Counted from the stretch's first letter, positions 29,195-63,217 are shown. The stretch: DNA of 64,000 nucleotides from an uncultured Bdellovibrionales bacterium (GCA_964505555.1 CAZDIO010000102.1:13355-77354), one strand, 5' to 3'. The notes: a model not told the origin generated them from the sequence alone. Translations and numbers: made by a program.

Positions 29195-29335
29195 ACGGCC
29201 ATTAAATTAAGGATCTGAAAGAAAGATCTATAGAACCACAGAGACACAGAGCCGCAGAGAAGATTAATAAAATCCCTTTCCTCTGTGTCTCTGCGCCTCT
29301 GTGGTTTAATAAAGAATCTTTAACTTAATGGCCGT
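29195..29335. repeat. B-type palindromic intergenic element, copy B1
   Basis: Outer inverted repeat acggccattaaattaag / cttaacttaatggccgt. It encloses ccacagagacacagagccgcagagaag ... ctctgtgtctctgcgcctctgtgg. It starts 10 nt after the UbiD-family stop. Confidence 0.85.
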
Positions 29336-29352
29336 GAGAATCCTCCTAACGT

Positions 29353-29428
29353 TAGCTGTAACAAGAACCCCGGTCGTTGCGAGCCGGGAAACCTCCGCTC
29401 GCAACGACAGGGGTTCTTGTTACAGCTA
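29353..29428. repeat. C-type palindromic element, copy C1 (76-bp near-perfect hairpin)
   Basis: tagctgtaacaagaaccccggtcgttgcgagc ... gctcgcaacgacaggggttcttgttacagcta, with a single mismatch in 32-bp arms. Confidence 0.85.
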
Positions 29429-29501: not shown

Positions 29502-29675
29502 TTAATTGCCGTGCATCGCGTTTTCCATCTCTGTTGCAGTATGTTCCAGATCTTGATTTAACGATTGGCCAAAGTTTGCAACTCCTGCCAAACAAACAAG
29601 CAACACAGAAGCTGCAAGTAGCAGATACTCAAGTAACGATGCTCCACGCTCGTTTTTTCGAATGTTCAATACCAT
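29502..29675 (-). CDS. flp: Flp-family type IVb (Tad) prepilin, 57 aa
   Basis: Own translation: MVLNIRKNERGASLLEYLLLAASVLLVCLAGVANFGQSLNQDLEHTATEMENAMHGN. It carries the Flp motif G/ASxxEYxLLxA followed by a hydrophobic helix. SD aggagagg lies 2 nt before the ATG. I checked it triplet by triplet and found no internal stop. It falls below the track's size cutoff; track ORF 29474-29677 (+) is its antisense shadow. Confidence 0.75.
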   Translation of the reverse strand: MVLNIRKNERGASLLEYLLLAASVLLVCLAGVANFGQSLNQDLEHTATEMENAMHGN

Positions 29676-33171: not shown

Positions 33172-33408
33172 TTATATCCACTCTTTCATCAGTCGTTTGA
33201 TCTGACTCTGATACGGCACATTTTGTAGATCACATTTATGCCGAAACGCAGCAAGAAGGGTCTGGGGAATTTTTATACTAATGAGTTTACTCTTTTCTGG
33301 CCGTTCATTCATGAGCCGAAAATCTTCAAGAAAACGTGCTATTTCATCCGGAGAGAGCTTCTTTGAATGATGAAGATACTCTTTAGAAAAAAACTGAACA
33401 CTTTTCAT
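33172..33408 (-). CDS. BrnA/CopG-like antitoxin-type small protein
   Basis: 78 aa. The C-terminal ISIKIPQTLLAAFRHKCDLQNVPYQSQIKRLMKEW resembles the ribbon-helix-helix BrnA pattern (..IPYQTLI..). Confidence 0.5.
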   Translation of the reverse strand: MKSVQFFSKEYLHHSKKLSPDEIARFLEDFRLMNERPEKSKLISIKIPQTLLAAFRHKCDLQNVPYQSQIKRLMKEWI

Positions 33409-33414
33409 CTCTTC

Positions 33415-33882
33415 TTACTCTCTACTTAATTCTTGTAGCGCTTCAATATCGGCGAGATCTTGTGGTCGACCCGCTTCTTGTTTCATTCGAATAAGATCTG
33501 ACAATGAAAGAAGGGAGATACTTGTTTGCTGAACCCGAACACGTTTTGTTCTTTGGGTCGAAAGATCATGGGTAATAATGATGTCAACAAGCTCTGCTGG
33601 AGTACGCGGATTTACAAAACTCCATGCAGTAAGGTTTCGATTCTTAATGTACTCCTTTCGAAATTTAAACACCTCTTTGGCGGTGATCGGAAGCTTTGCT
33701 TGAAGGCCGATACTATTTAGCGCCGCTTCCGCCTTTATAAACTGCTCCTCTTCAAAACGAAGAATAATGTCAATGTCGAGCGTTCCTCGTACCGCCCCAT
33801 GAAGAGATACGGCATATCCACCAACAAGTGCATACTTAACGTGGTTCGTATCTAAGGCCTTAATAACGCTTAAAAGAAACAT
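33415..33882 (-). CDS. Nucleotidyltransferase-fold protein (AbiEii/DUF6036-like), putative toxin partner
   Basis: N-terminal YALVGGYAVSLHGAVRGTLDIDIIL (the GG...G..R.T.DiD NTase signature) and C-terminal LIRMKQEAGRPQDLADIEAL. It lies 6 nt upstream of the BrnA-like gene. Confidence 0.5.
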   Translation of the reverse strand: MFLLSVIKALDTNHVKYALVGGYAVSLHGAVRGTLDIDIILRFEEEQFIKAEAALNSIGLQAKLPITAKEVFKFRKEYIKNRNLTAWSFVNPRTPAELVDIIITHDLSTQRTKRVRVQQTSISLLSLSDLIRMKQEAGRPQDLADIEALQELSRE

Positions 33883-36657: not shown

Positions 36658-38235
36658 CTAAACGCTACGATTCCTTTCTCGTTTTCTTTTCCAAGTTTCA
36701 AAGTCTACTACCGCAATTTTTTTTGCAAGCTCCTCACGAACACATCCTTCAACCGCTTCATGAAGACTTCTTCGATCAAGAGCGGTTTTTAAGCAGTTCA
36801 TCTTCTTTTCAACCTGATCATAGAGGTTTGAAAGAGACTCAGAAGAGAGTGTTTTTCGATAGCGATCGACTTCGGTAGAGAGGTATTCCTGATACTCTTT
36901 TTTCTCAACTGGATTGGCCTCTCCCCGCCCGCTAGAGATTGGGGCTTTTGGAAAGTCCCGCCCAGTATTTTTAAGGATTTTCTCTTCAAAACTCCGGGGA
37001 ATAATGAATTTATGTGGAGTTTCTACTGCCCGATAGAGAAAACCTACCCGATTTTTTGAGACTTTCGTATCATTTGTTTGCACAAGAAAATCGTAATAGG
37101 AGATGATTTTATCAACTTGTAAAAGTTCTGCGGCGTTTTTTTCACTGAGCAGCCGTTTTGCTTGCGAGAGATGAATGCCTCGCGAAAGCAGAGCTTCAAT
37201 GGCTCCTTGTCGTTGTGATTCTAGATCAGTAGAACTGCGTTGGGAGGAATCTTTTTGAAAAACAGGGGGCGAAGAAAGGATAAAGCTTCCTTGCTGCGTG
37301 TGATTTCTAGGAAGAGGGCTCTCTGTTTGCTGGAGATGTTTTTGAGATACGATCTCTTTTCCGGAATGAAAGCGCACAACGGTCTCTACGCCCCTACCTG
37401 CAAACTCATAACTTGAGAGAAACCCAAGCGCTTTTAACTCCTCGCACGCTGGTTCAATTTGTTGCTTAATCTGGGAGATGTATTGATAACTTCGAGAAAG
37501 TCCTAACTTCTCAAAGGCAAAGGTAACAAGTGGTTTTTCAATACTTGATTTGTAGTAAAAATGCTTATCAAGATACCGGTAGAGCCTTCGACTTACAGCA
37601 CTTCGAAGTGAGAAATAAAGGGTTAAATCAAGCTTTTTTATAAACCCTGATTTAAAAGAATGAAAAAGTGCCTCACTCCAAATAAAATAACTCTTTGAAG
37701 CCTCAGCCCCAGAGAGGGCTTTGTTCCCTCGCCCATCGTTTATTTCGTAGGCATCGATAATTCCGAAATTTCTTGTTTGATAGGCTTTTGAAGCATTATC
37801 AAAAAACGCATTTGCTGCCCGAATTCGAACCCCGCTTAAGCGATCAAGTGATTTTGTAAGGCGGGAGTAGCTTCGCCCTTCTGTGGTCCAGCGTAAGATT
37901 CCTAAAAGCTCATACCGGGTAAAATATACCTTTCGGTTTCGAAACCCTTGATCCATCGTTAACCGCATCAAGCCAAGAAGGACATCATCATCCGTAGCGG
38001 TGGGGAGTCCAAACTTGTCTGCCCCGGTAATAATCCACTGGCGTTCAATCACCTCCCCACTGGGGAGCCGTTGGTTGTCACGAAACTCAAGGGTTTTTAC
38101 CTTTGAGTTTGTGCGTGTCGAGAGAACCGCGAGGGGAAACTCTGCAAGGTTCATCTCATCACGTGAGGTAAGCACTACCTCGGATGAGGAGACTTCACGA
38201 TCTTCGGCTCTTTGTTGGTAGAGGGTTTGCTGCAT
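36658..38235 (-). CDS. Replication initiator protein A-like (plasmid-type RepA)
   Basis: The N-terminal region EMNLAEFPLAVLSTR...WIITGADKFGLPTATDDDVLLGLMRL matches my recollection of the 'replication initiator protein A' family. It is divergent from parAB across a 0.9-kb non-coding region. Confidence 0.6.
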   Translation of the reverse strand: MQQTLYQQRAEDREVSSSEVVLTSRDEMNLAEFPLAVLSTRTNSKVKTLEFRDNQRLPSGEVIERQWIITGADKFGLPTATDDDVLLGLMRLTMDQGFRNRKVYFTRYELLGILRWTTEGRSYSRLTKSLDRLSGVRIRAANAFFDNASKAYQTRNFGIIDAYEINDGRGNKALSGAEASKSYFIWSEALFHSFKSGFIKKLDLTLYFSLRSAVSRRLYRYLDKHFYYKSSIEKPLVTFAFEKLGLSRSYQYISQIKQQIEPACEELKALGFLSSYEFAGRGVETVVRFHSGKEIVSQKHLQQTESPLPRNHTQQGSFILSSPPVFQKDSSQRSSTDLESQRQGAIEALLSRGIHLSQAKRLLSEKNAAELLQVDKIISYYDFLVQTNDTKVSKNRVGFLYRAVETPHKFIIPRSFEEKILKNTGRDFPKAPISSGRGEANPVEKKEYQEYLSTEVDRYRKTLSSESLSNLYDQVEKKMNCLKTALDRRSLHEAVEGCVREELAKKIAVVDFETWKRKRERNRSV

Positions 38236-39136
38236 GAAAAAAAATGAAACAAAAAAATTTTAAATTAACTTCAAGTCGTTTGTTATTTTGGTACAACGTA
38301 CATCATAGTTCTTCAACAAGAAGTTTTTTTATAAGTACGTACGTTAGGAGAGAAATTATTCAATCTTTCTAGTAAGTTAAGCCAGAAAATTTCTTTCGAT
38401 TCCCGAATCTTTTGGGCTCAGATCACGATGGACTTGAAGTCAATTCACTTGAGCACTTATCTCATTTCATGAGATTTTTATTCTCCTGCCTAACTTTCTT
38501 ACTTCGACTCTCGACATTGTGAAACCAAAAGCGCGAGATTTTTATGTAAGGCTCTCTGGAGCCTCTAACATGAGTCAGATAGCCAAACATTCCGGAGAAA
38601 ACGGTAGGTGGTCACGGTCATTAAGTTAGTTCCTGTCCATAAAAGCCAATTTTGAGTCCAAGGTCGATTGAACGGCCACTACTTCTAAACTTACTCTGTG
38701 GTTTTATAAAATCTTCTTTCAGACCCTTAATGACCGTGGGTAAGAAACTCTATTTTAGTAAAGTCTCTTAGTTCATTACTCGAACCCTTATTTCAATACA
38801 CGCCTATTTGACCATTTTTGGTTATTCCATTTCACGAACAGCAGCCAAACAAAAACCACAAGATATTCTAACATATTGAAATTATTAATATAATCAGATA
38901 TTCGTGGTTTAATTGACCTCCAAAGATCGCATTATTCTGGGAATGTTCGAGCTTCGAAATAAGTACTGATCACGTTTATAAGCGAGCTTTTGAAAGATGA
39001 TTATTTCAAAGCACGCTACTTTTTGGCCACTAGGTAGGTTTCTTTACTGTTTGGAAGCTTTAGTTTAAACCAGTTATTGTTTAATTTAACCTCTGCCAAA
39101 ATCTCAACTCTTGAGTAACGAAGCTGTAAGGTGGCC
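38236..39136. other. Candidate replication-origin / partition-site region (non-coding)
   Basis: This is the longest ORF-free stretch in the window. It is visibly AT-rich (A/T runs at 38236-38275 and 38870-38905) and has short palindromes at 38459-38475 (atctcatttcatgagat) and 38549-38564 (aggctctctggagcct). The RepA-like gene and parA flank it. I could not define clean iterons, DnaA boxes or a full parS by eye. Confidence 0.35.
38613..38738. repeat. B-type element, decayed copy (B2)
   Basis: Outer inverted repeat cacggtcattaag / cttaatgaccgtg. The right half, ctctgtggttttataaaatcttctttcagacccttaatgaccgtg, parallels B1 and B3; the left core is eroded. Confidence 0.6.
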
Positions 39137-39913
39137 ATGGCAAAAGTCTTTGCAATAGTGAATCAAAAGGGGGGAGTTGGAAAAACTACCACCGCTGCAA
39201 ATTTGGCCGCCGCGCTATCTGAGCGAGGTCAAAAAGTGCTTGTTATTGATCTTGATGCTCAAGCAAATCTCTCTGCTCATTTTGGAAGTTCCGTAGATGA
39301 TCAGAGTGAGCAGCTTACAATGTATGATGTGCTCAGGCACAACGCCCCGATTGAAAAAGCAATAATAAACCTCTCTTCGAACTTAAGTATCGTTCCTGCA
39401 AGCCTCCTACTAAGTGCTGCAGATTTAGAGCTTGGTGGTGTTATCGGTCGTGAGTTACTTCTTAAAAAAGCTCTTCAACCGGTAATTGATGACTATGATT
39501 ACACGATCATTGATTGCCCACCCTCACTGGGGATGCTCTCCCTCAATGGGCTTGTTGCTGCTTCACGAGTTATCGTTCCTGTTCAAAGTGAGTTTTTAGC
39601 CCTTCACGGCGTAAGGCAGCTTCTTGATACGATTGACCAGGTACGAAGTGCCTACAACCCCTTACTTGCTGTGGGTGGAGTTCTTCTCTGTCTTCATGAT
39701 TCAAGAAGGAGACTGGCGCGGAGTGTTGCCGATACGGTGCGCGAATATTTTGGAGATCTTGTTTTTGAAACTGTCATTCGCACAAACGTTGCCCTTGCTG
39801 AAGCACCTGCCCAGGGGGACTCAATTTTTCAATACGACCGCCGCTCAAGCGGTGCTGAAGATTATGCTAGCCTTGCAGAGGAGATACTAAGCCGTGGCAA
39901 AAAAGAAGGTTAA
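39137..39913 (+). CDS. parA: ParA/Soj-type partition ATPase
   Basis: Deviant Walker A NQKGGVGKTTTA; size and colinearity are those of chromosomal Soj. I prefer ATG 39137 (MAKVFAIVNQKGG) to the track's GTG 39131. Confidence 0.9.
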   Translation: MAKVFAIVNQKGGVGKTTTAANLAAALSERGQKVLVIDLDAQANLSAHFGSSVDDQSEQLTMYDVLRHNAPIEKAIINLSSNLSIVPASLLLSAADLELGGVIGRELLLKKALQPVIDDYDYTIIDCPPSLGMLSLNGLVAASRVIVPVQSEFLALHGVRQLLDTIDQVRSAYNPLLAVGGVLLCLHDSRRRLARSVADTVREYFGDLVFETVIRTNVALAEAPAQGDSIFQYDRRSSGAEDYASLAEEILSRGKKEG

Positions 39914-40814
39914 ATTCAGTGTAAACCCACTTCTTGGGGGACCAAGTCTTGCATCACGAGCAAAGATGGGGAGCCCTTATCGGGAGCTTTTAATCGACGA
40001 GATCGATTTTGATCCTGATCAACCGCGACGAGTATTTAATGAAGAGCGACTTCAAGAGCTCGCTGATTCAATTAAAGAACACGGAATCATCTCACCAATA
40101 CTTGTTAAAGTAACAGAAGGGGGAACCTATAAGCTTGTATCTGGAGAGAGAAGACTTCGTGCCTCAAAAATTGCTGGATTAGAATCGATCCCCGCAGTTA
40201 TTGAAGACGATGATAAAAGTAGTGATGTAACCCTTCCTAAGCAGCTTGTAGAAAATCTCCAACGAGAAGATCTCACCGTAATGGAGAGGGCGATCGCTAT
40301 TGGCCAACTACGAGATGCTTACAAATTGAGCATTCGTGAGATCTCCTCAAAGCTTTCCATTTCAAAAGGACTCGTTCAGAGAAGCCTTGAAGTTCTCGAT
40401 CTCCCAGACGATCTTCAAGCAGCGTTAATAAACGGTGCCTCAGAGACGAAGATTCTCGTTTTAGCGAAAGTTTCGAATCGTGAATTGAGAAAAGAATTTA
40501 TCGCTCAACTTGATAATTTCACCCGAGCACAACTTGAAGAAGAGGTAGATCGGGTTACGACACTCTTAAATGGCGACAAAGAAGAGGTGTACCACGGTGG
40601 TACACCTCGTAGTCGAAAAAATGGAAGAAATAAACTTTCCCCTCAAGATGAGCAGTTAATTAATGATTTAAAAAACAAACTAGGAACAAGAGTTTCTTTA
40701 ATGCGCAGTCGTGGCAAAGAGGGGCAGGGGAAGCTGATGATCGAGTTCTATTCAGATAACGATCTAAGCGAGATCTTTCGACGACTTTGTCGAACCGCTA
40801 GCGATTCTCTTTAA
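39894..40814 (+). CDS. parB: ParB/Spo0J-type partition protein
   Basis: ParB-box blocks GIISPILV and VSGERRLRASKIAG, plus an HTH region. It overlaps parA by 20 nt. Confidence 0.9.
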   Translation: MAKKKVKFSVNPLLGGPSLASRAKMGSPYRELLIDEIDFDPDQPRRVFNEERLQELADSIKEHGIISPILVKVTEGGTYKLVSGERRLRASKIAGLESIPAVIEDDDKSSDVTLPKQLVENLQREDLTVMERAIAIGQLRDAYKLSIREISSKLSISKGLVQRSLEVLDLPDDLQAALINGASETKILVLAKVSNRELRKEFIAQLDNFTRAQLEEEVDRVTTLLNGDKEEVYHGGTPRSRKNGRNKLSPQDEQLINDLKNKLGTRVSLMRSRGKEGQGKLMIEFYSDNDLSEIFRRLCRTASDSL

Positions 40815-40888
40815 GCGATTACATTTGTGCGCCAACTGTACCACGGCGGTACACTAATAACAGCACAACAACACAGGAAATTATCCAG

Positions 40889-44020: not shown

Positions 44021-45376
44021 ATGATCGTTACTGATTCACCATTTCGCACGCAATATAGCGCCAATAACGTTGCAATTCGAAACGGAGCAACAAGTACTAC
44101 GCCGGCGCAATTTAGTAATCTTTCTTTTCTTCGATCGACACCACCTTCTTTACCTTCAAGCAATCTCCTTGCCCCATCAAGTAGCGGAGGATTTGTTTCT
44201 CAAGTGCAGTCGATGCTGCAGCAAGTTTCGGTGCTGATGGATCTCATCGGTGCCGCAAGACAATCAGATCAAAGTGCTGGGGTTAGTCTCCTCGATGGGG
44301 CGAAACTCTTTTCTCAAAATGTTTCTCAGGAGCTTTTTAACCTTCAGACAAGAGGAGGTATCGGAGGGGTTTTTGATGCTGTTCCGACCTCTATAGATAG
44401 TCTTGGTACTGCCGCTCAACAGTACGTTCTTGGGAACCTCAAGCGAGAGTTTTTTGACGCAGTTGGTGAGGCGTTTGGGGTGGATGTTTCACAGCTTTCT
44501 GTAACAGATCTTGCCAATTTGGCTTATGAAAGCGTTTTTGGAGAGGGAACATCGCTCTCTAGTACCCTCTCAGATGGGGTGGCAGGAATCTTCTCCGGTC
44601 AGGATCCCTTTGTAGCAGGAGAACTTAGTGGAGAAATTGGTGGAGAAATAAGCACTGAAGTAGGCGGGGCAACTTCAGGAATTGGCCAATTTACAGGCGC
44701 TTTAGCAACCGCGTATTCTCTCTATGGAATAATTAATGACTGGGGAAAGAGCACCCCAGCCATGGGTGCGATGCGAGGTGCTACGGCTGGAGCGTACATC
44801 GGGAGTATTATTCCAGGAGTTGGAACTCTTATCGGAGGTGCCATCGGTGGGGTTGCGGGGGCGATCTCTGGATTGTTTCATAGTGGGAAGCATAAAAACC
44901 AGATTCAACGCGATCAGGTTCGAGAGTTTTTAAGAAATGCCCAAATTATCGATTCAGATAACTCCCTTCAGTTAGCAAATGGTGAACGTTTTGATATCGG
45001 AAAAGATGGAGGTGCTCGCTATCTTGGACTTGACGGAGTTGAGAGACGACCCTACGTGACTGACCCTTCAAATCCACTTACCGCTGAGGCGATAGGGCTT
45101 GTAAATCCGTTAGCAATAATTCTCACCGGAGGTGATCCTGGACTTTCTTCAGCTTTTGCAGGGTATTTTAGTAATGCCATCGTCAGTAACGCACAAGATC
45201 TCGAAGGCGTCCGCCAAAATGCCTTGGCGATATTCTCAAAATTTCAGGTTACCCCAGAGCAATTGATCGCTGGCTTAGAAAATCTTACTGCCTCCGGCAA
45301 AATCCCCCCAGAAGATTTTGCTGCATACGCAAACGGGGTAAGAACTCTCCTTGAAGGGTTTTCTTCACCTTCATAA
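44021..45376 (+). CDS. Glycine-zipper-containing protein of unknown function; candidate secreted pore-former/effector
   Basis: 451 aa. The N-terminus is Ser/Thr/Pro-rich with no hydrophobic signal (SPFRTQYSANNVAIRNGATSTTPAQFSNLSFLRSTPPSLPSS). The central segment GAMRGATAGAYIGSIIPGVGTLIGGAIGGVAGAISGLF is a GxxxG ladder. SD gggagg. Confidence 0.6.
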   Translation: MIVTDSPFRTQYSANNVAIRNGATSTTPAQFSNLSFLRSTPPSLPSSNLLAPSSSGGFVSQVQSMLQQVSVLMDLIGAARQSDQSAGVSLLDGAKLFSQNVSQELFNLQTRGGIGGVFDAVPTSIDSLGTAAQQYVLGNLKREFFDAVGEAFGVDVSQLSVTDLANLAYESVFGEGTSLSSTLSDGVAGIFSGQDPFVAGELSGEIGGEISTEVGGATSGIGQFTGALATAYSLYGIINDWGKSTPAMGAMRGATAGAYIGSIIPGVGTLIGGAIGGVAGAISGLFHSGKHKNQIQRDQVREFLRNAQIIDSDNSLQLANGERFDIGKDGGARYLGLDGVERRPYVTDPSNPLTAEAIGLVNPLAIILTGGDPGLSSAFAGYFSNAIVSNAQDLEGVRQNALAIFSKFQVTPEQLIAGLENLTASGKIPPEDFAAYANGVRTLLEGFSSPS

Positions 45377-61169: not shown

Positions 61170-61649
61170 TTGATGAGAAACAATCTACCTACCTCCATTA
61201 TTTCTGGTCTTATCTGTGGAATAGTGGGTTTGTTTGCTGTGATGCATAGTGTCGGGATCGGCTTATTTTCGATGGGGTCCTTTCTCAAAGTCCCTGCGTA
61301 CTTACGGGTTATCGTTTCTCAAGCTAAAGAACCACTCGATGTTCAACTAGCTAAGAAGCTCAGTCGACGTGAAAATGTCGATTATCTTTCGCCTGTTCTC
61401 GCCCTTCGTGCTCTTTCTACAAATTGTATCGGTGTAACACAAAAGGCCCGCAGCGCTTTAGAAGAGGAACTCTATTTTTATCGTTATTTCTTGATGGAGA
61501 AGCAATTAGTTTTTACAGAAACGTATGTTGAAGATCAATTGCTTCCATGTTCTCATTTTATTTTAACCACGAAAGAGGCAGCAAATTACGAAACTTCGCT
61601 AAAGACTCTGCAGATATTAACTACATCACTTCGATTATATCAGAGATGA
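61170..61649 (+). CDS. Hypothetical membrane-anchored protein
   Basis: 159 aa with an N-terminal hydrophobic segment (IISGLICGIVGLFAVMHSVGIGLF). ATGA overlap with the next gene. Confidence 0.4.
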   Translation: MMRNNLPTSIISGLICGIVGLFAVMHSVGIGLFSMGSFLKVPAYLRVIVSQAKEPLDVQLAKKLSRRENVDYLSPVLALRALSTNCIGVTQKARSALEEELYFYRYFLMEKQLVFTETYVEDQLLPCSHFILTTKEAANYETSLKTLQILTTSLRLYQR

Positions 61650-63070
61650 AGATCGTTATTCTTCTAAGTTTTTTTCTTCCAGGTTTAGTGCTCTTCTACG
61701 GCGCACGCATTGATTTCGTGTTGAAGGTTCTTTTTGCTCTCGTCTACTCAATGGGAATTACCGTGCTTCTGTATTTAACAATTCTTGTTATCTCACCAGC
61801 ACCGATCGGGACAAACCTCACACTGACAATGCTTTTTGGGATAATGCTTAGTATTTACCTGCGAACAGCTGTTTTTTCCGAAGTAAAGAGAGAACATTTC
61901 CCGGATAATAAGAATCATCAAACGATAAAAAATATTGTGTTTGGATGCTCTTGTCTTCTTTTAGGTGTTCACCTGCTTTCAACACTTGCTGCAATCAAGA
62001 TCTCACCAGGAGTTGAGTGGGATGAGTTTGTTATTTGGAATATTCGGGGAAGGAGTATCTTCCAAACACAATCGTTAGCCGCAAATGTAAACTTCTTAGA
62101 TTATCCAGGATACCCCCCTCTCTGGCCTGCTCTTCTTTCAATCTGTTGGTATTTTGATGAACATTGTACCTATTTTCTTTCCCCCATTCTTTTAATGTTT
62201 ACAGTGCTTTTCTGCCTGCGGTGGATGCAGGAGCGAAGTCGATCAACAGTATTTCAGTTTCTTCTTCTTGGGTTTGCTCCAATAGTATATGGGCACTTCT
62301 TTCTTTGGGGAAACTCCTATCAACTGTATATCCCGTATGCAAATGTATGTGCGGGATGTTTTTTTACGATCGGTGTTCTCTGCTCTCTCTCGTATCTAGA
62401 AACAAAAGCACCACACGAGCTACTTCTTGGAGCGCTGAACTTGGCAGTAACCGTGTTGGTTCGTCCAGAAAGTTTGATCCATGTGTTGATTTTTTTTGGA
62501 TTGTTTACCCCAGTTCTTGTCAAGACCTTTCAAAAAGCGGGGATGGGAAAAAAAATAATTACCAAACGGGTTGTTCAACTGTTTTGTCCTGCAGGTGGTT
62601 TTTGGATCGTCTGGTCGGGATATCGAACGCTTTTTAAACTTGAAAATATCGGAGATCGGTACTTACAACGAGGAATTTCAGAGACATTTGCCATGTCTCT
62701 ATCTGACATAGTGTTTAAAATAAAATCTATTTTTGCCTACAGTTTTACACCATCTCGGCTTATTACTCCTTTTGAAAAGGAATTTTGTTTTTTACTGTTT
62801 CTTGTTTTCTTTATCTTAGGAAGTGGGATGTATTTTGTGGCAAAAAAGAGAGCGATGTTTCCTTCGCTATTTTTAGGGGTGTTGGTTTTTCTGCAGATAA
62901 GTGCGGTAATGATGATCTACTTAGTAACTTCAAACGTTAAGCCAATTGATTGGTGGTTAGTAACAGGCTACTGGCGAATGACCGCTTCTTACATGCTCTT
63001 ACTTTTTGTTTTTCTCTTTGAAACAGCCAATGGGATATTTTCTAGAGTAGAACAACATCACGGCGATTAG
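61646..63070 (+). CDS. Polytopic membrane protein, GT-C-like
   Basis: I trimmed the start to ATG 61646 (MKIVILLSFFLPGLVLFYG...), which forms an ATGA overlap with the upstream stop. About 12 TM helices. Its stop codon lies inside repeat B3. Confidence 0.5.
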   Translation: MKIVILLSFFLPGLVLFYGARIDFVLKVLFALVYSMGITVLLYLTILVISPAPIGTNLTLTMLFGIMLSIYLRTAVFSEVKREHFPDNKNHQTIKNIVFGCSCLLLGVHLLSTLAAIKISPGVEWDEFVIWNIRGRSIFQTQSLAANVNFLDYPGYPPLWPALLSICWYFDEHCTYFLSPILLMFTVLFCLRWMQERSRSTVFQFLLLGFAPIVYGHFFLWGNSYQLYIPYANVCAGCFFTIGVLCSLSYLETKAPHELLLGALNLAVTVLVRPESLIHVLIFFGLFTPVLVKTFQKAGMGKKIITKRVVQLFCPAGGFWIVWSGYRTLFKLENIGDRYLQRGISETFAMSLSDIVFKIKSIFAYSFTPSRLITPFEKEFCFLLFLVFFILGSGMYFVAKKRAMFPSLFLGVLVFLQISAVMMIYLVTSNVKPIDWWLVTGYWRMTASYMLLLFVFLFETANGIFSRVEQHHGD

Positions 63071-63217
63071 TTAGGGTTCTGGAAGAAAGATTATAAAACC
63101 ACAGAGACACAGAGTCGCAGAGAAGATCAACAAAATCCTTTTCTCCGTATTCTATCTCTGTGTCTCTGTGTCTCTGCGTCTCTGTGGTTTTATTAAAAAT
63201 CTTTAATTTATGGCTGT
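63060..63217. repeat. B-type palindromic element, copy B3
   Basis: acggcgattagttagggttctggaagaaagattataaaaccacagagacacagagtcgcagagaag ... ctctgtgtctctgtgtctctgcgtctctgtggttttattaaaaatctttaatttatggctgt. It is colinear with B1, and its left end overlaps the last codons and stop of the upstream CDS. Confidence 0.85.

What the first reader, a model, noticed from the sequence alone, without database searches (positions are those of the whole stretch)
36658..40814. Plasmid-type RepA-like initiator plus parAB around a 0.9-kb AT-rich gap, embedded among core metabolic genes
The RepA-like gene (minus strand) and parA-parB (plus strand) diverge from the longest non-coding stretch of the window. That stretch is AT-rich, has short palindromes and contains a decayed B-type repeat. 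The flanks are housekeeping genes: icd on one side and polyprenyl synthase, hemD and hemB on the other, with serA and pgl further right. This layout is expected for the origin of a secondary replicon (chromid or megaplasmid) that has acquired essential genes. It could also be an integrated plasmid backbone. By eye I found no DnaA boxes, no clean iterons and no full 16-bp parS (only half-site-like tttcacg at ~38832 and gtgaaac at ~38518).
Basis: partly seen in the sequence, partly recalled or inferred. Interest (0 to 1): 0.65.

Follow-up and report, generated by a model that had tools for sequence, protein, structure and literature searches.

The report
Plasmid-type origin of a large bacterial replicon
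This stretch is a working replication origin of plasmid design (initiator protein, repeated binding sites, partition genes and an altered centromere) kept by a whole uncultured branch of Bdellovibrionota on a replicon of at least 1.87 Mb, which may even be their main chromosome.

Summary
The 525-aa protein belongs to the RPA initiator family (Pfam PF10134), and its model has the tandem winged-helix fold of RctB, RepE and pi. It diverges from Soj/Spo0J-type parA-parB across the longest ORF-free, AT-rich gap of the window.

First, the gap holds 9-10 degenerate bipartite iterons (wTCGTG-N4-GAaATAAg), four of them head-to-tail at 22 bp. A matrix built only from relatives found them (Poisson p about 4e-20). 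Second, two copies of a variant 17-bp parS (TGTACCAC-G-GYGGTACA) lie at the 3' end of parB. They go with a changed ParB recognition helix.

The module RPA-gap-parAB is syntenic in all 73 related loci that hold enough upstream DNA. These come from uncultured Bdellovibrionota/Oligoflexia genomes, and one contig is 1.87 Mb. GC skew flips at the gap in 52 of 53 loci, whichever way the genes point. This is therefore an old, active, bidirectional origin, not an integrated plasmid relic. No DnaA-box cluster and no dnaA lie nearby.

I could not test whether the replicon is a second chromosome or the only chromosome, with DnaA bypassed. Nothing in the searchable literature describes it.

The parts
36658..38235 (-). 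Gene for the RPA-family replication initiator (525 aa). It has N-terminal tandem winged-helix domains (about residues 25-294), a disordered linker, and a conserved helical C-terminal region (about 333-525).
38236..38386 (.). Spacer between the last iteron and the RPA start, 73.5% AT. It is a candidate unwinding element and must also hold the RPA promoter and leader. It carries conserved GTAC / TTGTT boxes and a TTAAAGT-like tandem.
   Evidence: AT content. Block-wise conservation with L002, L014, L021, L036 and L065. Single-copy conserved k-mers AGTTAGTTAAA and related. Function is inferred.
38387..38518 (-). Proximal iteron array. Units at 38387-38410, 38409-38432, 38431-38454 (weak), 38453-38476 and 38495-38518. 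The first four lie head-to-tail at exactly 22 bp.
   Evidence: Matrix built from relatives only; scores 17.1, 15.3, 8.6, 12.8 and 13.8 bits.
38613..38738 (.). Decayed copy of a dispersed palindromic (MITE-like) element that splits the iteron field. Its ends form the 13-nt perfect inverted repeat.
38764..38841 (-). Distal iterons at 38764-38787, 38784-38807 and 38818-38841.
Evidence: 11.6, 16.8 and 14.7 bits.
38943..38966 (+). A single iteron in the opposite orientation.
   Evidence: 16.2 bits.
38997..39020 (-). The iteron nearest to parA. It overlaps a promoter-like match read on the minus strand.
   Evidence: 16.9 bits; promoter-like site (consensus match only).
39131..39913 (+). parA, a Soj-type deviant Walker A ATPase without an N-terminal HTH. 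The real start is probably the ATG at 39137.
   Evidence: AAA_31, 197 bits. 46-49% identity to Soj-type ParA; the top rows include Bacillus soj beside spo0J and records of chromosome size. PDB Soj/ParA hits at 1e-43 to 1e-60. Only 32% identity to the ParA of the RPA plasmid pSINAC01. The start codon is read from the sequence.
39894..40814 (+). parB, of chromosomal Spo0J type. The GERRxRA motif is intact, but the recognition helix differs (SISKGLVQRSLEVL against canonical GKSRSHVANxxRLL).
   Evidence: ParB_N, HTH_ParB and ParB_C; TIGR00180, 146 bits; PDB ParB/Spo0J/Noc hits at 1e-24 to 1e-29; helix conserved across the clade.
40474..40497 (+). Outlying iteron inside the parB coding sequence, the best-scoring site of the whole window.
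   Evidence: 21.3 bits. The same site, at ParB residue about 194, occurs in L002, L036 and L007.
40588..40604 (.). Variant parS copy 1, TGTACCACGGTGGTACA, inside the parB linker region.
   Evidence: chance expectation 0.09 matches per window. The clade consensus is TGTCCCAC(S)GTGGGACA, found in the equivalent position in 62 of 80 loci.
40837..40853 (.). Variant parS copy 2, TGTACCACGGCGGTACA, 23 nt after the parB stop codon.

Best explanation
The region is the replication-and-partition module of a large, essential, vertically inherited replicon of an uncultured Bdellovibrionota (Oligoflexia-like) bacterium.

The RPA protein, a tandem winged-helix initiator of the RepE/pi/TrfA/RctB class, binds 9-10 bipartite iterons (wTCGTG-N4-GAaATAAg). 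Most point the same way, and the four nearest the gene are phased at 22 bp. Binding opens the adjacent 73%-AT spacer, and replication proceeds in both directions.

A Soj-type ParA and a Spo0J-type ParB with a changed recognition helix segregate the origin region. They use two variant 17-bp parS palindromes at the 3' end of parB. Extra iterons outside the origin, one inside parB next to the parS sites, probably titrate the initiator or couple it to partition.

Shown by computation: family and fold of the proteins, the motifs and their clustering, the synteny, and the skew switch. Inferred: which protein binds which motif, the site of unwinding, helicase recruitment, and control by the outlying sites.

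Open: whether this replicon is the cell's second chromosome or its only one.
For: 2. Iterons in the window: a matrix trained only on relatives puts 8 of the window's 9 minus-strand hits of 11.5 bits or more inside the 895-nt gap (Poisson p 4e-20). Four units are spaced at exactly 22 bp.
3. Iterons in relatives: site density is 8.9 per kb in the gaps, against 0.03-0.04 per kb in the RPA gene and in the flank beyond it.
4. Assignment of iterons to RPA: plasmids of Planctomycetota with 31-34% identical RPA genes carry 22-bp tandem iterons just upstream of rep, on the rep sense strand. Their design is the same (yCGwk, spacer, purine-rich block), for example ACCGTGGTTTGAGGGAT in pEP7_04.
5. Origin activity: GC skew flips at the gap in 52 of 53 loci (Wilcoxon p 2.7e-10). 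GC3 skew of genes follows their direction relative to the gap, not their coding strand (+0.090 / -0.080 on the left, +0.058 / -0.073 on the right). 78% and 59% of genes are co-oriented with replication. The window's own cumulative skew has its minimum here.
6. Vertical inheritance: RPA-gap-parA-parB is syntenic in all 73 loci with enough upstream DNA. RPA identity is 41-72% by best BLAST segment, 41-56% in full-length matches.
7. Large essential replicon: contigs of 1,866,914 and 708,979 bp. Neighbours include icd, hemB, ispA and a FolC-like ligase; in relatives also TrpRS and an S18-domain protein.
8. parS: a 17-bp palindrome occurs 1-5 times per locus, always in or just after the 3' end of parB, in 62 of 80 loci. 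The window has two copies against 0.09 expected. There is no canonical parS in 1.29 Mb of loci. The ParB recognition helix is changed throughout the clade.
Against: - No experiment links RPA to the iterons or ParB to the palindrome.
- The iteron core CGTGAA resembles half of a canonical parS, so a ParB contribution at these sites is not excluded.
- The window's iterons are degenerate: no two are identical, and one unit scores only 8.6 bits.
- The unwinding site is only an AT-rich guess.
- The skew minimum computed in 250-nt steps falls at 36,750, about 1.5 kb to the left of the gap and inside the RPA gene.
- All relatives are metagenome bins. Replicon size and circularity rest on contig lengths, and contamination or mis-binning cannot be excluded for any single bin.
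Confidence: 0.85

Rival explanations
1. Second chromosome (chromid). The clade has a conventional DnaA/oriC main chromosome with canonical ParABS. This RPA/iteron replicon is an anciently domesticated megaplasmid that took up housekeeping genes, as in Vibrio Chr2 or Burkholderia chr2. This is a more specific version of the best explanation.
For: - DnaA is near-universal in free-living bacteria (established knowledge).
- A private parS and a changed ParB helix are what co-resident replicons need to avoid cross-talk.
- None of the usual origin-linked genes appears among the clusters shared by seven or more loci within 10 kb of the gap; smaller clusters were not annotated. No dnaA was found by tblastn in the held DNA.
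- Only 4 tRNA genes in 1.3 Mb of origin-proximal DNA, and no tRNA or Rfam RNA in the window.
Against: - Conservation spans at least 203 matching stretches in species-representative genomes, with RPA identity down to about 41%. This is deeper than the genus-level spread usual for chromids.
- One contig is 1.87 Mb.
- ParA is of the small Soj type and is 46-49% identical to Soj-type ParA, but only 32% to the ParA of an RPA plasmid.
- The gaps have no DnaA boxes (57 of 73 have none at up to 1 mismatch). By my own recollection, well-studied iteron replicons and Vibrio oriCII carry them.
Confidence: 0.5
2. Main or only chromosome. A plasmid-type RPA/iteron origin has taken over chromosome replication, a natural and fixed form of 'integrative suppression'. 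DnaA is either lost or no longer acts at the origin. This too is a more specific version of the best explanation.
For: - Contigs of 1.87 Mb and 0.71 Mb carry the module.
- It is linked throughout the clade to a Soj/Spo0J-type parAB, as at ordinary chromosomal origins.
- Strong replication-associated skew and gene-strand bias.
- No DnaA-box cluster in any of 73 gaps.
- Housekeeping and flagellar genes lie around it.
Against: - The presence or absence of dnaA in these genomes could not be tested.
- The prior is low.
- Chromosomal ParB keeps the canonical parS across phyla (own knowledge), whereas here it has changed.
- Usual ori-linked genes were not seen nearby.
- The assembly with the 1.87-Mb contig has at least one more contig, judging by the record name.
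Confidence: 0.38
3. An integrated plasmid backbone or mobile element that no longer fires; the host chromosome replicates from elsewhere.
For: The initiator family is otherwise known from plasmids. A toxin-antitoxin-like pair (CopG-like plus nucleotidyltransferase) lies 3 kb away. A MITE-like element sits inside the gap.
Against: - The skew switch lies at the gap in 52 of 53 genomes and is independent of gene orientation.
- Synteny is invariant, and the initiator is under strong purifying selection (about 130 invariant columns).
- No integrase, relaxase or transfer genes were seen among the annotated ORFs of the window.
- Relatives are essentially absent from viral contigs.
Confidence: 0.03
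4. The repeated TCGTG-N4-GAnATAAG sites are bound by ParB or another regulator, as a centromere or operator array upstream of parA, and not by RPA. The true initiator sites would then lie elsewhere in the gap.
For: The core CGTGAA equals half of a canonical parS. Sites also occur inside parA, inside parB and between parS copies. In one subclade an inverted pair brackets the parA start.
Against: - The motif is asymmetric, bipartite and 22-bp phased, as for monomeric winged-helix Rep proteins.
- Plasmid relatives have the same design directly upstream of rep. In pEP7_04 and pPL62-3, no par gene is annotated within 2.5-4 kb of rep.
- A proper palindrome that fits a dimeric ParB clamp exists separately.
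Confidence: 0.1

Closest known systems
Vibrio cholerae chromosome 2 origin (oriCII, initiator RctB, ParAB2/parS2)
   Different: The initiator family differs (PF10134 RPA; only 12% identity over the structural alignment). No DnaA box or Dam-site signature was seen. ParA is the small Soj type, not the large plasmid type. The host phylum differs. It is not known whether a DnaA-driven chromosome coexists.
Iteron plasmids with winged-helix Rep proteins (F RepE, R6K pi, RK2 TrfA, pPS10 RepA)
   Different: The replicon is at least 1.87 Mb, not a plasmid. The iterons are highly degenerate. No DnaA boxes. No inverted-repeat operator was found at the rep promoter in the window. There is an extra conserved C-terminal helical region.
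RPA (PF10134) plasmids of Planctomycetota (pISOP01, pPL62-3, pEP7_04, pPL17-1) and megaplasmids of Deinococcus/Thermus
   Same: Same Pfam family and closest annotated relatives (31-34% identity over about 75% of the protein). Same origin layout: 22-bp iterons on the rep sense strand, 100-300 nt upstream of rep, with the bipartite design yCGwk-N4-5-purine-rich.
   Different: Those are 24-130 kb plasmids with near-identical tandem iterons. Where they have ParA, it is only 32% identical. The Bdellovibrionota proteins form a separate, far more conserved subfamily tied to housekeeping DNA.
Chromosomal ParABS (Soj/Spo0J with 16-bp parS TGTTNCACGTGAAACA)
   Same: ParA is 46-49% identical to Soj-type ParA. 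ParB carries ParB_N with GERRxRA, an HTH and a dimerisation domain. The sites sit in and next to parB, close to the origin.
   Different: The parS is 17 bp, TGTCCCAC-S-GTGGGACA (TGTACCAC... in the window). Two positions per half-site are changed and there is one extra central base. The recognition helix is SKSxVQRSL instead of KSRSHVANxxRLL.
Integrative suppression in E. coli (dnaA-ts rescued by an integrated F or R1 origin). Cited from my own knowledge; not looked up here.
   Same: A plasmid Rep/iteron origin can in principle drive a whole chromosome.
   Different: That is a laboratory phenomenon. Here it would be a natural state fixed across a clade, and that is unproven.

Membership tests
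Iteron-type theta replicon with winged-helix Rep initiator (RPA/PF10134 within the RepE/pi/TrfA/RctB class) | Initiator with tandem winged-helix DNA-binding domains | tested here: met
Iteron-type theta replicon with winged-helix Rep initiator (RPA/PF10134 within the RepE/pi/TrfA/RctB class) | Several directly repeated initiator sites of about 17-22 bp, helically phased, next to the rep gene | tested here: met
   Nine minus-strand sites and one plus-strand site in the gap; four at exactly 22 bp; p 4e-20. Conserved in relatives at 8.9 per kb.
Iteron-type theta replicon with winged-helix Rep initiator (RPA/PF10134 within the RepE/pi/TrfA/RctB class) | AT-rich unwinding element beside the iterons | tested here: inconclusive
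   38236-38386 is 73.5% AT and holds conserved short boxes. Unwinding itself cannot be tested here.
Iteron-type theta replicon with winged-helix Rep initiator (RPA/PF10134 within the RepE/pi/TrfA/RctB class) | Host DnaA boxes in the origin (common, not universal) | tested here: not met
   No excess in the window. 57 of 73 related gaps have none at up to 1 mismatch, and none has two.
Iteron-type theta replicon with winged-helix Rep initiator (RPA/PF10134 within the RepE/pi/TrfA/RctB class) | Initiator binds the iterons and supports autonomous replication | not testable with these tools
   Needs a gel shift or footprint and a mini-replicon assay.
Chromosomal-type ParABS | Soj-type Walker ATPase ParA and ParB with CTP-binding ParB_N (GERRxRA), HTH and dimerisation domain | tested here: met
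Chromosomal-type ParABS | Canonical 16-bp parS TGTTNCACGTGAAACA near the origin | tested here: not met
   No match at up to 3 mismatches in the window. One 2-mismatch match in 1.29 Mb of loci. A 17-bp variant palindrome takes its place.
Chromid / secondary chromosome | Plasmid-type replication and partition system | tested here: met
   RPA plus iterons.
Chromid / secondary chromosome | Carries core genes | tested here: met
   icd, hemB and ispA in the window; TrpRS, a FolC-like ligase and an S18-domain protein in relatives. That these are the only copies in the genome was not tested.
Chromid / secondary chromosome | Coexists with a larger DnaA/oriC chromosome of similar composition | not testable with these tools
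DnaA/oriC chromosomal origin | Cluster of DnaA boxes, usually beside dnaA or dnaN | tested here: not met

The most novel reading that the evidence does not exclude
An entire uncultured, order-or-deeper branch of Bdellovibrionota replicates its main (possibly only) chromosome from a plasmid-derived RPA/iteron origin instead of DnaA/oriC. It segregates that chromosome with a Soj/Spo0J system retargeted to a 17-bp variant parS. This would be a natural, evolutionarily fixed case of integrative suppression.
Probability: 0.35. Interest if true: 0.9.

Novelty: new variant of a known kind. Interest (0 to 1): 0.72.

Why it matters
Plasmid-type origins on essential replicons are known from a few proteobacterial groups (Vibrio, Burkholderia, Rhizobiales) and from Deinococcus. 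This adds a deep, uncultured Bdellovibrionota lineage with a different initiator family (RPA).

The case comes with a full set of predicted cis elements: an iteron consensus, a candidate unwinding region and a new parS with a matching change in the ParB helix. These can be tested directly in vitro.

The matched parS and ParB-helix changes are a natural experiment in how ParB specificity evolves. The conserved placement of initiator sites beside or between parS copies suggests that initiation and partition are coupled.

If the replicon proves to be the main chromosome, it would be the first free-living lineage that I know of in which a plasmid Rep has replaced DnaA. That bears on how replaceable the bacterial initiator is. 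It also matters for tools that call origins or rotate genomes by dnaA, and for marker sets that count DnaA.

Tried and rejected
- Canonical parS: none at up to 3 mismatches in the window or at up to 2 in the loci.
- DnaA boxes: no excess in the window or the gaps.
- Generic direct and inverted repeat search of the gap: only weak two- or three-copy families. It missed the iterons, which surfaced only through k-mer enrichment across 74 orthologous gaps.
- tRNA and Rfam scans of the window: nothing.
- Sequence search of RPA against PDB: no hit. Only the fold search worked.
- tblastn with E. coli DnaA against all held DNA: no hit.
- Finding the window's own NCBI record by exact protein look-up: only short Logan fragments or nothing came back.
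- Literature searches for Bdellovibrionota or Oligoflexia with DnaA, for plasmid-like chromosomal origins, for STL-BDEC1 and for the parS variant sequence: nothing relevant.
- Reading the 17-bp palindrome as a terminator: rejected, because a hairpin with a 1-nt loop is not credible.
- tRNA content of the loci as a chromosome marker: 4 genes only, not decisive.
- Using a protein search to fish for dnaA from the same assemblies: rejected, because only the 120 best hits are listed and no query from within the clade was available.

Full report
**1. What is at the coordinates**

The window is 43-44% G+C and has no tRNA or Rfam RNA.

- The ORF 36658-38235 (-) encodes 525 aa. It matches Pfam PF10134, 'Replication initiator protein A' (RPA), over residues 25-226 at 67.5 bits against a cut-off of 27. 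A sub-threshold TrfA match sits on the same stretch.
- Across an 895-nt gap, 39131-39913 (+) encodes a ParA-type ATPase (AAA_31, 197 bits). 39894-40814 (+) encodes a ParB with ParB_N, HTH_ParB and ParB_C (TIGR00180 146 bits).
- The gap is the longest stretch of the window without an ORF of 60 aa or more in any frame. It is 64.7% A+T against 56.7% for the window.
- The rest of the window holds a polysaccharide-synthesis cluster, UbiD, flagellin, a lytic transglycosylase, a sigma factor, FliF/YscJ-like and FHIPEP export proteins.
Positions 38613-38738 are a worn copy of a palindromic dispersed element, also present at 29206-29353 and 63071-63203. Its ends make the 13-nt perfect inverted repeat in the gap.

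**2. The initiator belongs to a large, tightly conserved lineage-specific subfamily**

- A protein search returned 1,177 homologues. The best are 44-62% identical over nearly the full length. Every hit that carries a name is from a Bdellovibrionota, Bdellovibrionales, Oligoflexia or 'Deltaproteobacteria' metagenome bin, or from an unclassified 'bacterium' bin.
- In an alignment of 23 of them, about 130 columns are invariant, nearly all in the first 270 residues. That is far more conservation than plasmid Rep proteins usually show.
- A scan of one genome per species found 203 matching stretches. The 80 best are all uncultured bins. They include contigs of 1,866,914 bp (JAXLVP010000002.1, assembly GCA_046328905.1; module at about 587 kb) and 708,979 bp.
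- The nearest annotated relatives are RPA genes of 24-130 kb plasmids of Planctomycetota (31-34% identity over about 75% of the protein), then Deinococcus, Thermus and Rubrobacter megaplasmids (22-31%).
- Relatives are virtually absent from viral contigs: one distant hit.

**3. The layout is conserved**

- In all 73 related loci that hold enough upstream DNA, RPA and parA-parB diverge from a gap of 389-1,476 nt (median 769). A polyprenyl synthase follows parB, directly or after one extra gene.
- Every gap is richer in A+T than its flanks (60.6% against 52.2%; 73 of 73).

**4. Iterons**

- A generic repeat finder saw nothing convincing.
- Counting k-mers over the 74 orthologous gaps showed that TCGTGAA-type 8-mers occur in 55-57 gaps, often several times. 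They occur in at most 1 of 69 coding controls.
- I trained a position matrix on the relatives only. Its bipartite consensus is wTCGTG-(a/c)(a/t)(t)(t/c)-GAaaTAAg, with the two conserved halves about one helical turn apart.
- In relatives the sites often form runs with 22-bp spacing. Their density at 12 bits or more is:
  - 8.9 per kb in the gaps on the RPA sense strand;
  - 2.3 per kb on the other strand;
  - 0.03-0.04 per kb in the RPA gene and in the flank beyond it.
- In the window the matrix finds nine sites on the RPA strand and one on the other strand. All ten lie in the gap. The nine are 38387-38410, 38409-38432, 38431-38454 (weak), 38453-38476, 38495-38518, 38764-38787, 38784-38807, 38818-38841 and 38997-39020. 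The one on the other strand is 38943-38966.
- Eight of the nine minus-strand hits of 11.5 bits or more in the whole 64 kb lie in these 895 nt (Poisson p 4e-20). The four nearest the gene are head-to-tail at exactly 22 bp.
- The MITE-like insertion explains the hole in the middle of the field.

**5. Why the sites are assigned to RPA**

- The Planctomycetota plasmids with related RPA genes carry classical tandem 22-bp iterons 100-300 nt upstream of rep, on the rep sense strand:
  - TTTCGATATTCCGGGGAGGAT, 11 copies (pISOP01);
  - ACCGATATCGCGGGGAGGAAGC, 6 copies (pPL62-3);
  - AAAYSACCGTGGTTTGAGGGAT, 4 copies (pEP7_04);
  - TACCGTCCTTCAGGGCAGGAAG (pPL17-1).
- All share the design seen here: yCG(w)(k), four to five bases, then a purine-rich block. 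pEP7_04 even shares CGTG-N4-GA.
- This design, its asymmetry and its 22-bp phasing fit a monomer that contacts two successive major grooves with WH1 and WH2, as in the pi and RepE complexes. The mechanism is taken from established knowledge and from the review PMC4980987. Binding here is inferred.

**6. The region next to the gene**

- Between the last iteron and the RPA start lie 151 nt of 73.5% A+T.
- Aligned with the closest relatives, this stretch shows conserved blocks:
  - the terminal iteron TCGnGAAnCGAAAGAAA;
  - TAAC;
  - a T-run;
  - two to three GTAC boxes followed by TTGTT;
  - a tandem TTAAAGT-like element just before the start codon.
- I take this as the promoter and leader plus the most likely unwinding element. 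That is inference only.

**7. The gap behaves as an origin**

- The window's cumulative GC skew falls from position 1 to about 36.7-39 kb and rises afterwards.
- In 53 related loci with at least 4 kb on each side, skew on the RPA sense strand is -0.076 on the parAB side and +0.044 on the RPA side. It flips in 52 of 53 (Wilcoxon p 2.7e-10).
- Third-codon-position skew separates replication from transcription. Genes pointing away from the gap have +0.090 (left) and +0.058 (right) on their coding strand. Genes pointing towards it have -0.080 and -0.073.
- 78% (left) and 59% (right) of genes point away from the gap.
- Such compositional asymmetry builds up over long times. Replication has therefore started here, in both directions, throughout the history of the clade. 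This excludes a silent integrated plasmid remnant.

**8. Partition system and a new parS**

- ParA is of the small Soj type. It is 46-49% identical to Soj-type ParA. The best 'plasmid' rows include Bacillus soj beside spo0J and records of chromosome size. PDB Soj/ParA hits are at 1e-43 to 1e-60. It is only 32% identical to the ParA of the RPA plasmid pSINAC01.
- ParB is closest to chromosomal ParB, Spo0J and Noc structures (1e-24 to 1e-29) and keeps GERRxRA.
- Neither the window nor 1.29 Mb of related loci contains a canonical parS.
- An alignment of the clade's ParBs with three canonical ParBs shows why. The recognition helix GKSRSHVANxxRLL is replaced throughout the clade by G(I/V/L)SK(S/G)xVQRSL(E/D)(I/L)L.
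- A search for half-site palindromes then found one outstanding motif, GTCCCAC-N-GTGGGAC, in 50 of 81 sequences.
- The full site is TGTCCCAC(C/G)GTGGGACA. It occurs 1-5 times per locus, always inside the 3' part of parB and/or within about 150 nt after it; two loci have an extra copy in the gap. It is present in 62 of 80 loci; the loci without a match appear to be those that do not extend to the parB 3' end.
- The window has TGTACCACGGTGGTACA at 40588-40604 (in the parB linker) and TGTACCACGGCGGTACA at 40837-40853 (23 nt after the stop). A shuffled window is expected to give 0.09 matches. The TGTACCAC variant recurs in relatives, for example L002, L008, L009 and L047.
- The site is a canonical parS with two positions per half changed and one central base added. 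Its 1-nt 'loop' rules out a terminator.
- The assignment of ParB to this palindrome is inferred from position, symmetry and the matching helix change.

**9. Initiator sites outside the origin**

- The best matrix hit of the whole window (21.3 bits) lies inside parB at 40474-40497. The same site, with the same codons, is in L002, L036 and L007.
- Relatives carry further sites inside parA and a cluster just downstream of parB.
- In 19 of 42 cases where two parS copies lie 40-130 bp apart, an iteron-like site sits between them.
- By analogy with P1 incA (own knowledge) or the RctB 39-mers near parS2 (PMC6090056, PMC3688505), these may titrate the initiator or couple initiation to partition. This is a hypothesis.

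**10. Which replicon?**

- Around the origin, clade members carry ispA (52 loci), a FolC-like ligase (38), a transglycosylase (25), flagellin (24), an inositol-monophosphatase-family protein (23), TrpRS (10) and an RRM-S18 fusion (10). The window adds icd and hemB. The replicon is thus essential and at least 1.87 Mb.
- Against a conventional chromosomal origin:
  - no DnaA-box cluster: 57 of 73 gaps have no box at up to 1 mismatch and none has two;
  - none of the usual ori-linked genes among the gene clusters shared by seven or more loci (smaller clusters were not annotated);
  - few tRNAs.
- For a second chromosome: the strong prior that DnaA is universal, and the private parS.
- For the main chromosome: the depth of conservation, the contig size, the Soj-type ParA and the lack of DnaA boxes.
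My estimate is about 0.5 for a second chromosome and about 0.35-0.4 for a main or only chromosome.

**11. Comparison and novelty**

- Functionally this works like an iteron replicon joined to a ParABS system. It most resembles Vibrio cholerae chromosome 2.
- It passes the membership tests for an iteron-type winged-helix Rep origin (initiator fold, phased iterons). It lacks DnaA boxes.
- It fails the canonical-parS test for chromosomal ParABS while keeping the proteins.
- Seven literature searches and one paper read found no description of this clade's origin, of RPA on chromosome-sized replicons in Bdellovibrionota, or of the variant parS.
- I rate it a new variant of a known kind. If DnaA proves absent, it would be something categorically new.

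Noticed in passing
window 29206-29353, 63071-63203, and a decayed copy at 38613-38738: A dispersed palindromic element of about 150 nt (MITE- or REP-like). Its ends are CACGGCCATTAAGTTAAAG..., and its core consists of inverted runs of CAGAGAC-type heptamers. One worn copy has landed inside the replication origin between the two iteron groups.
   Followed up: partly
L027 7489-7579, L035 7590-7676, L039 7703-7796 and others (downstream of parB): A composite element in which an iteron-like initiator site sits between two variant parS palindromes 50-130 bp apart. It was found in 19 of 42 close parS pairs. This suggests cross-talk between initiator and ParB.
   Followed up: partly
window 40474-40497 (inside parB): The highest-scoring iteron of the whole window lies in the parB coding sequence (codons N-R-E-L-R-K-E). 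The same DNA site recurs in L002, L036 and L007, although ParB identity is only about 55%.
   Followed up: partly
L068 15858-16424 (-), and 9 other loci: A fusion of an N-terminal RRM RNA-binding domain to ribosomal protein S18 (Pfam RRM_1 + Ribosomal_S18), conserved near the origin in the freshwater subclade. It is unclear whether this is the only S18 gene.
   Followed up: no
related loci, RPA-proximal part of the gap (for example L040 gap offset about 487-515 against L008 gap offset about 735-760): The conserved single-copy block containing AGTTAGTTAAA appears in opposite orientation, relative to the RPA gene, in the two subclades. It reads AAAGATTGTTTAACTAACTAAAACTAAGCT in one and GACTTAAAGTAAAAGTTAGTTAAAGT in the other.
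   Followed up: no
window 33172-33882 (-): A small gene pair 3 kb from the origin: a DUF6036 nucleotidyltransferase-fold protein and a CopG-antitoxin-like protein (below Pfam's threshold), a probable toxin-antitoxin module. Other toxin-antitoxin genes (ParE, HigB, HepT) lie near the origin in L085.
   Followed up: no
window 29502-29675 (-): A 57-aa ORF that looks, by eye, like a Flp-type pilin (MVLNIRKNERGASLLEYLLLAASVLL...). Tad pilus genes lie near the origin in relatives (L084, L068).
   Followed up: no
window 39131-39140: The mechanical parA ORF starts at GTG 39131. An ATG at 39137, preceded by AGGTGG, gives the usual ParA N-terminus (MAKVFAIVNQKGGVGKT) and is the more likely start. The parB start as listed was not found by exact look-up, so its called start also differs.
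   Followed up: partly
window 44021-45376 (+) and 61547-63070 (+): Two long ORFs (451 and 507 aa) have no Pfam match. The first is Gly/Ser/Ala-rich.
   Followed up: no
freshwater subclade gaps, offsets 9 and 68 from the parA start (for example L040, L056, L058, L064, L068): Two iterons in inverted orientation, about 59 bp apart, bracket the sequence immediately upstream of parA. This looks like an operator and hints that the initiator, or ParB, regulates parAB. It was not seen in the window.
   Followed up: no
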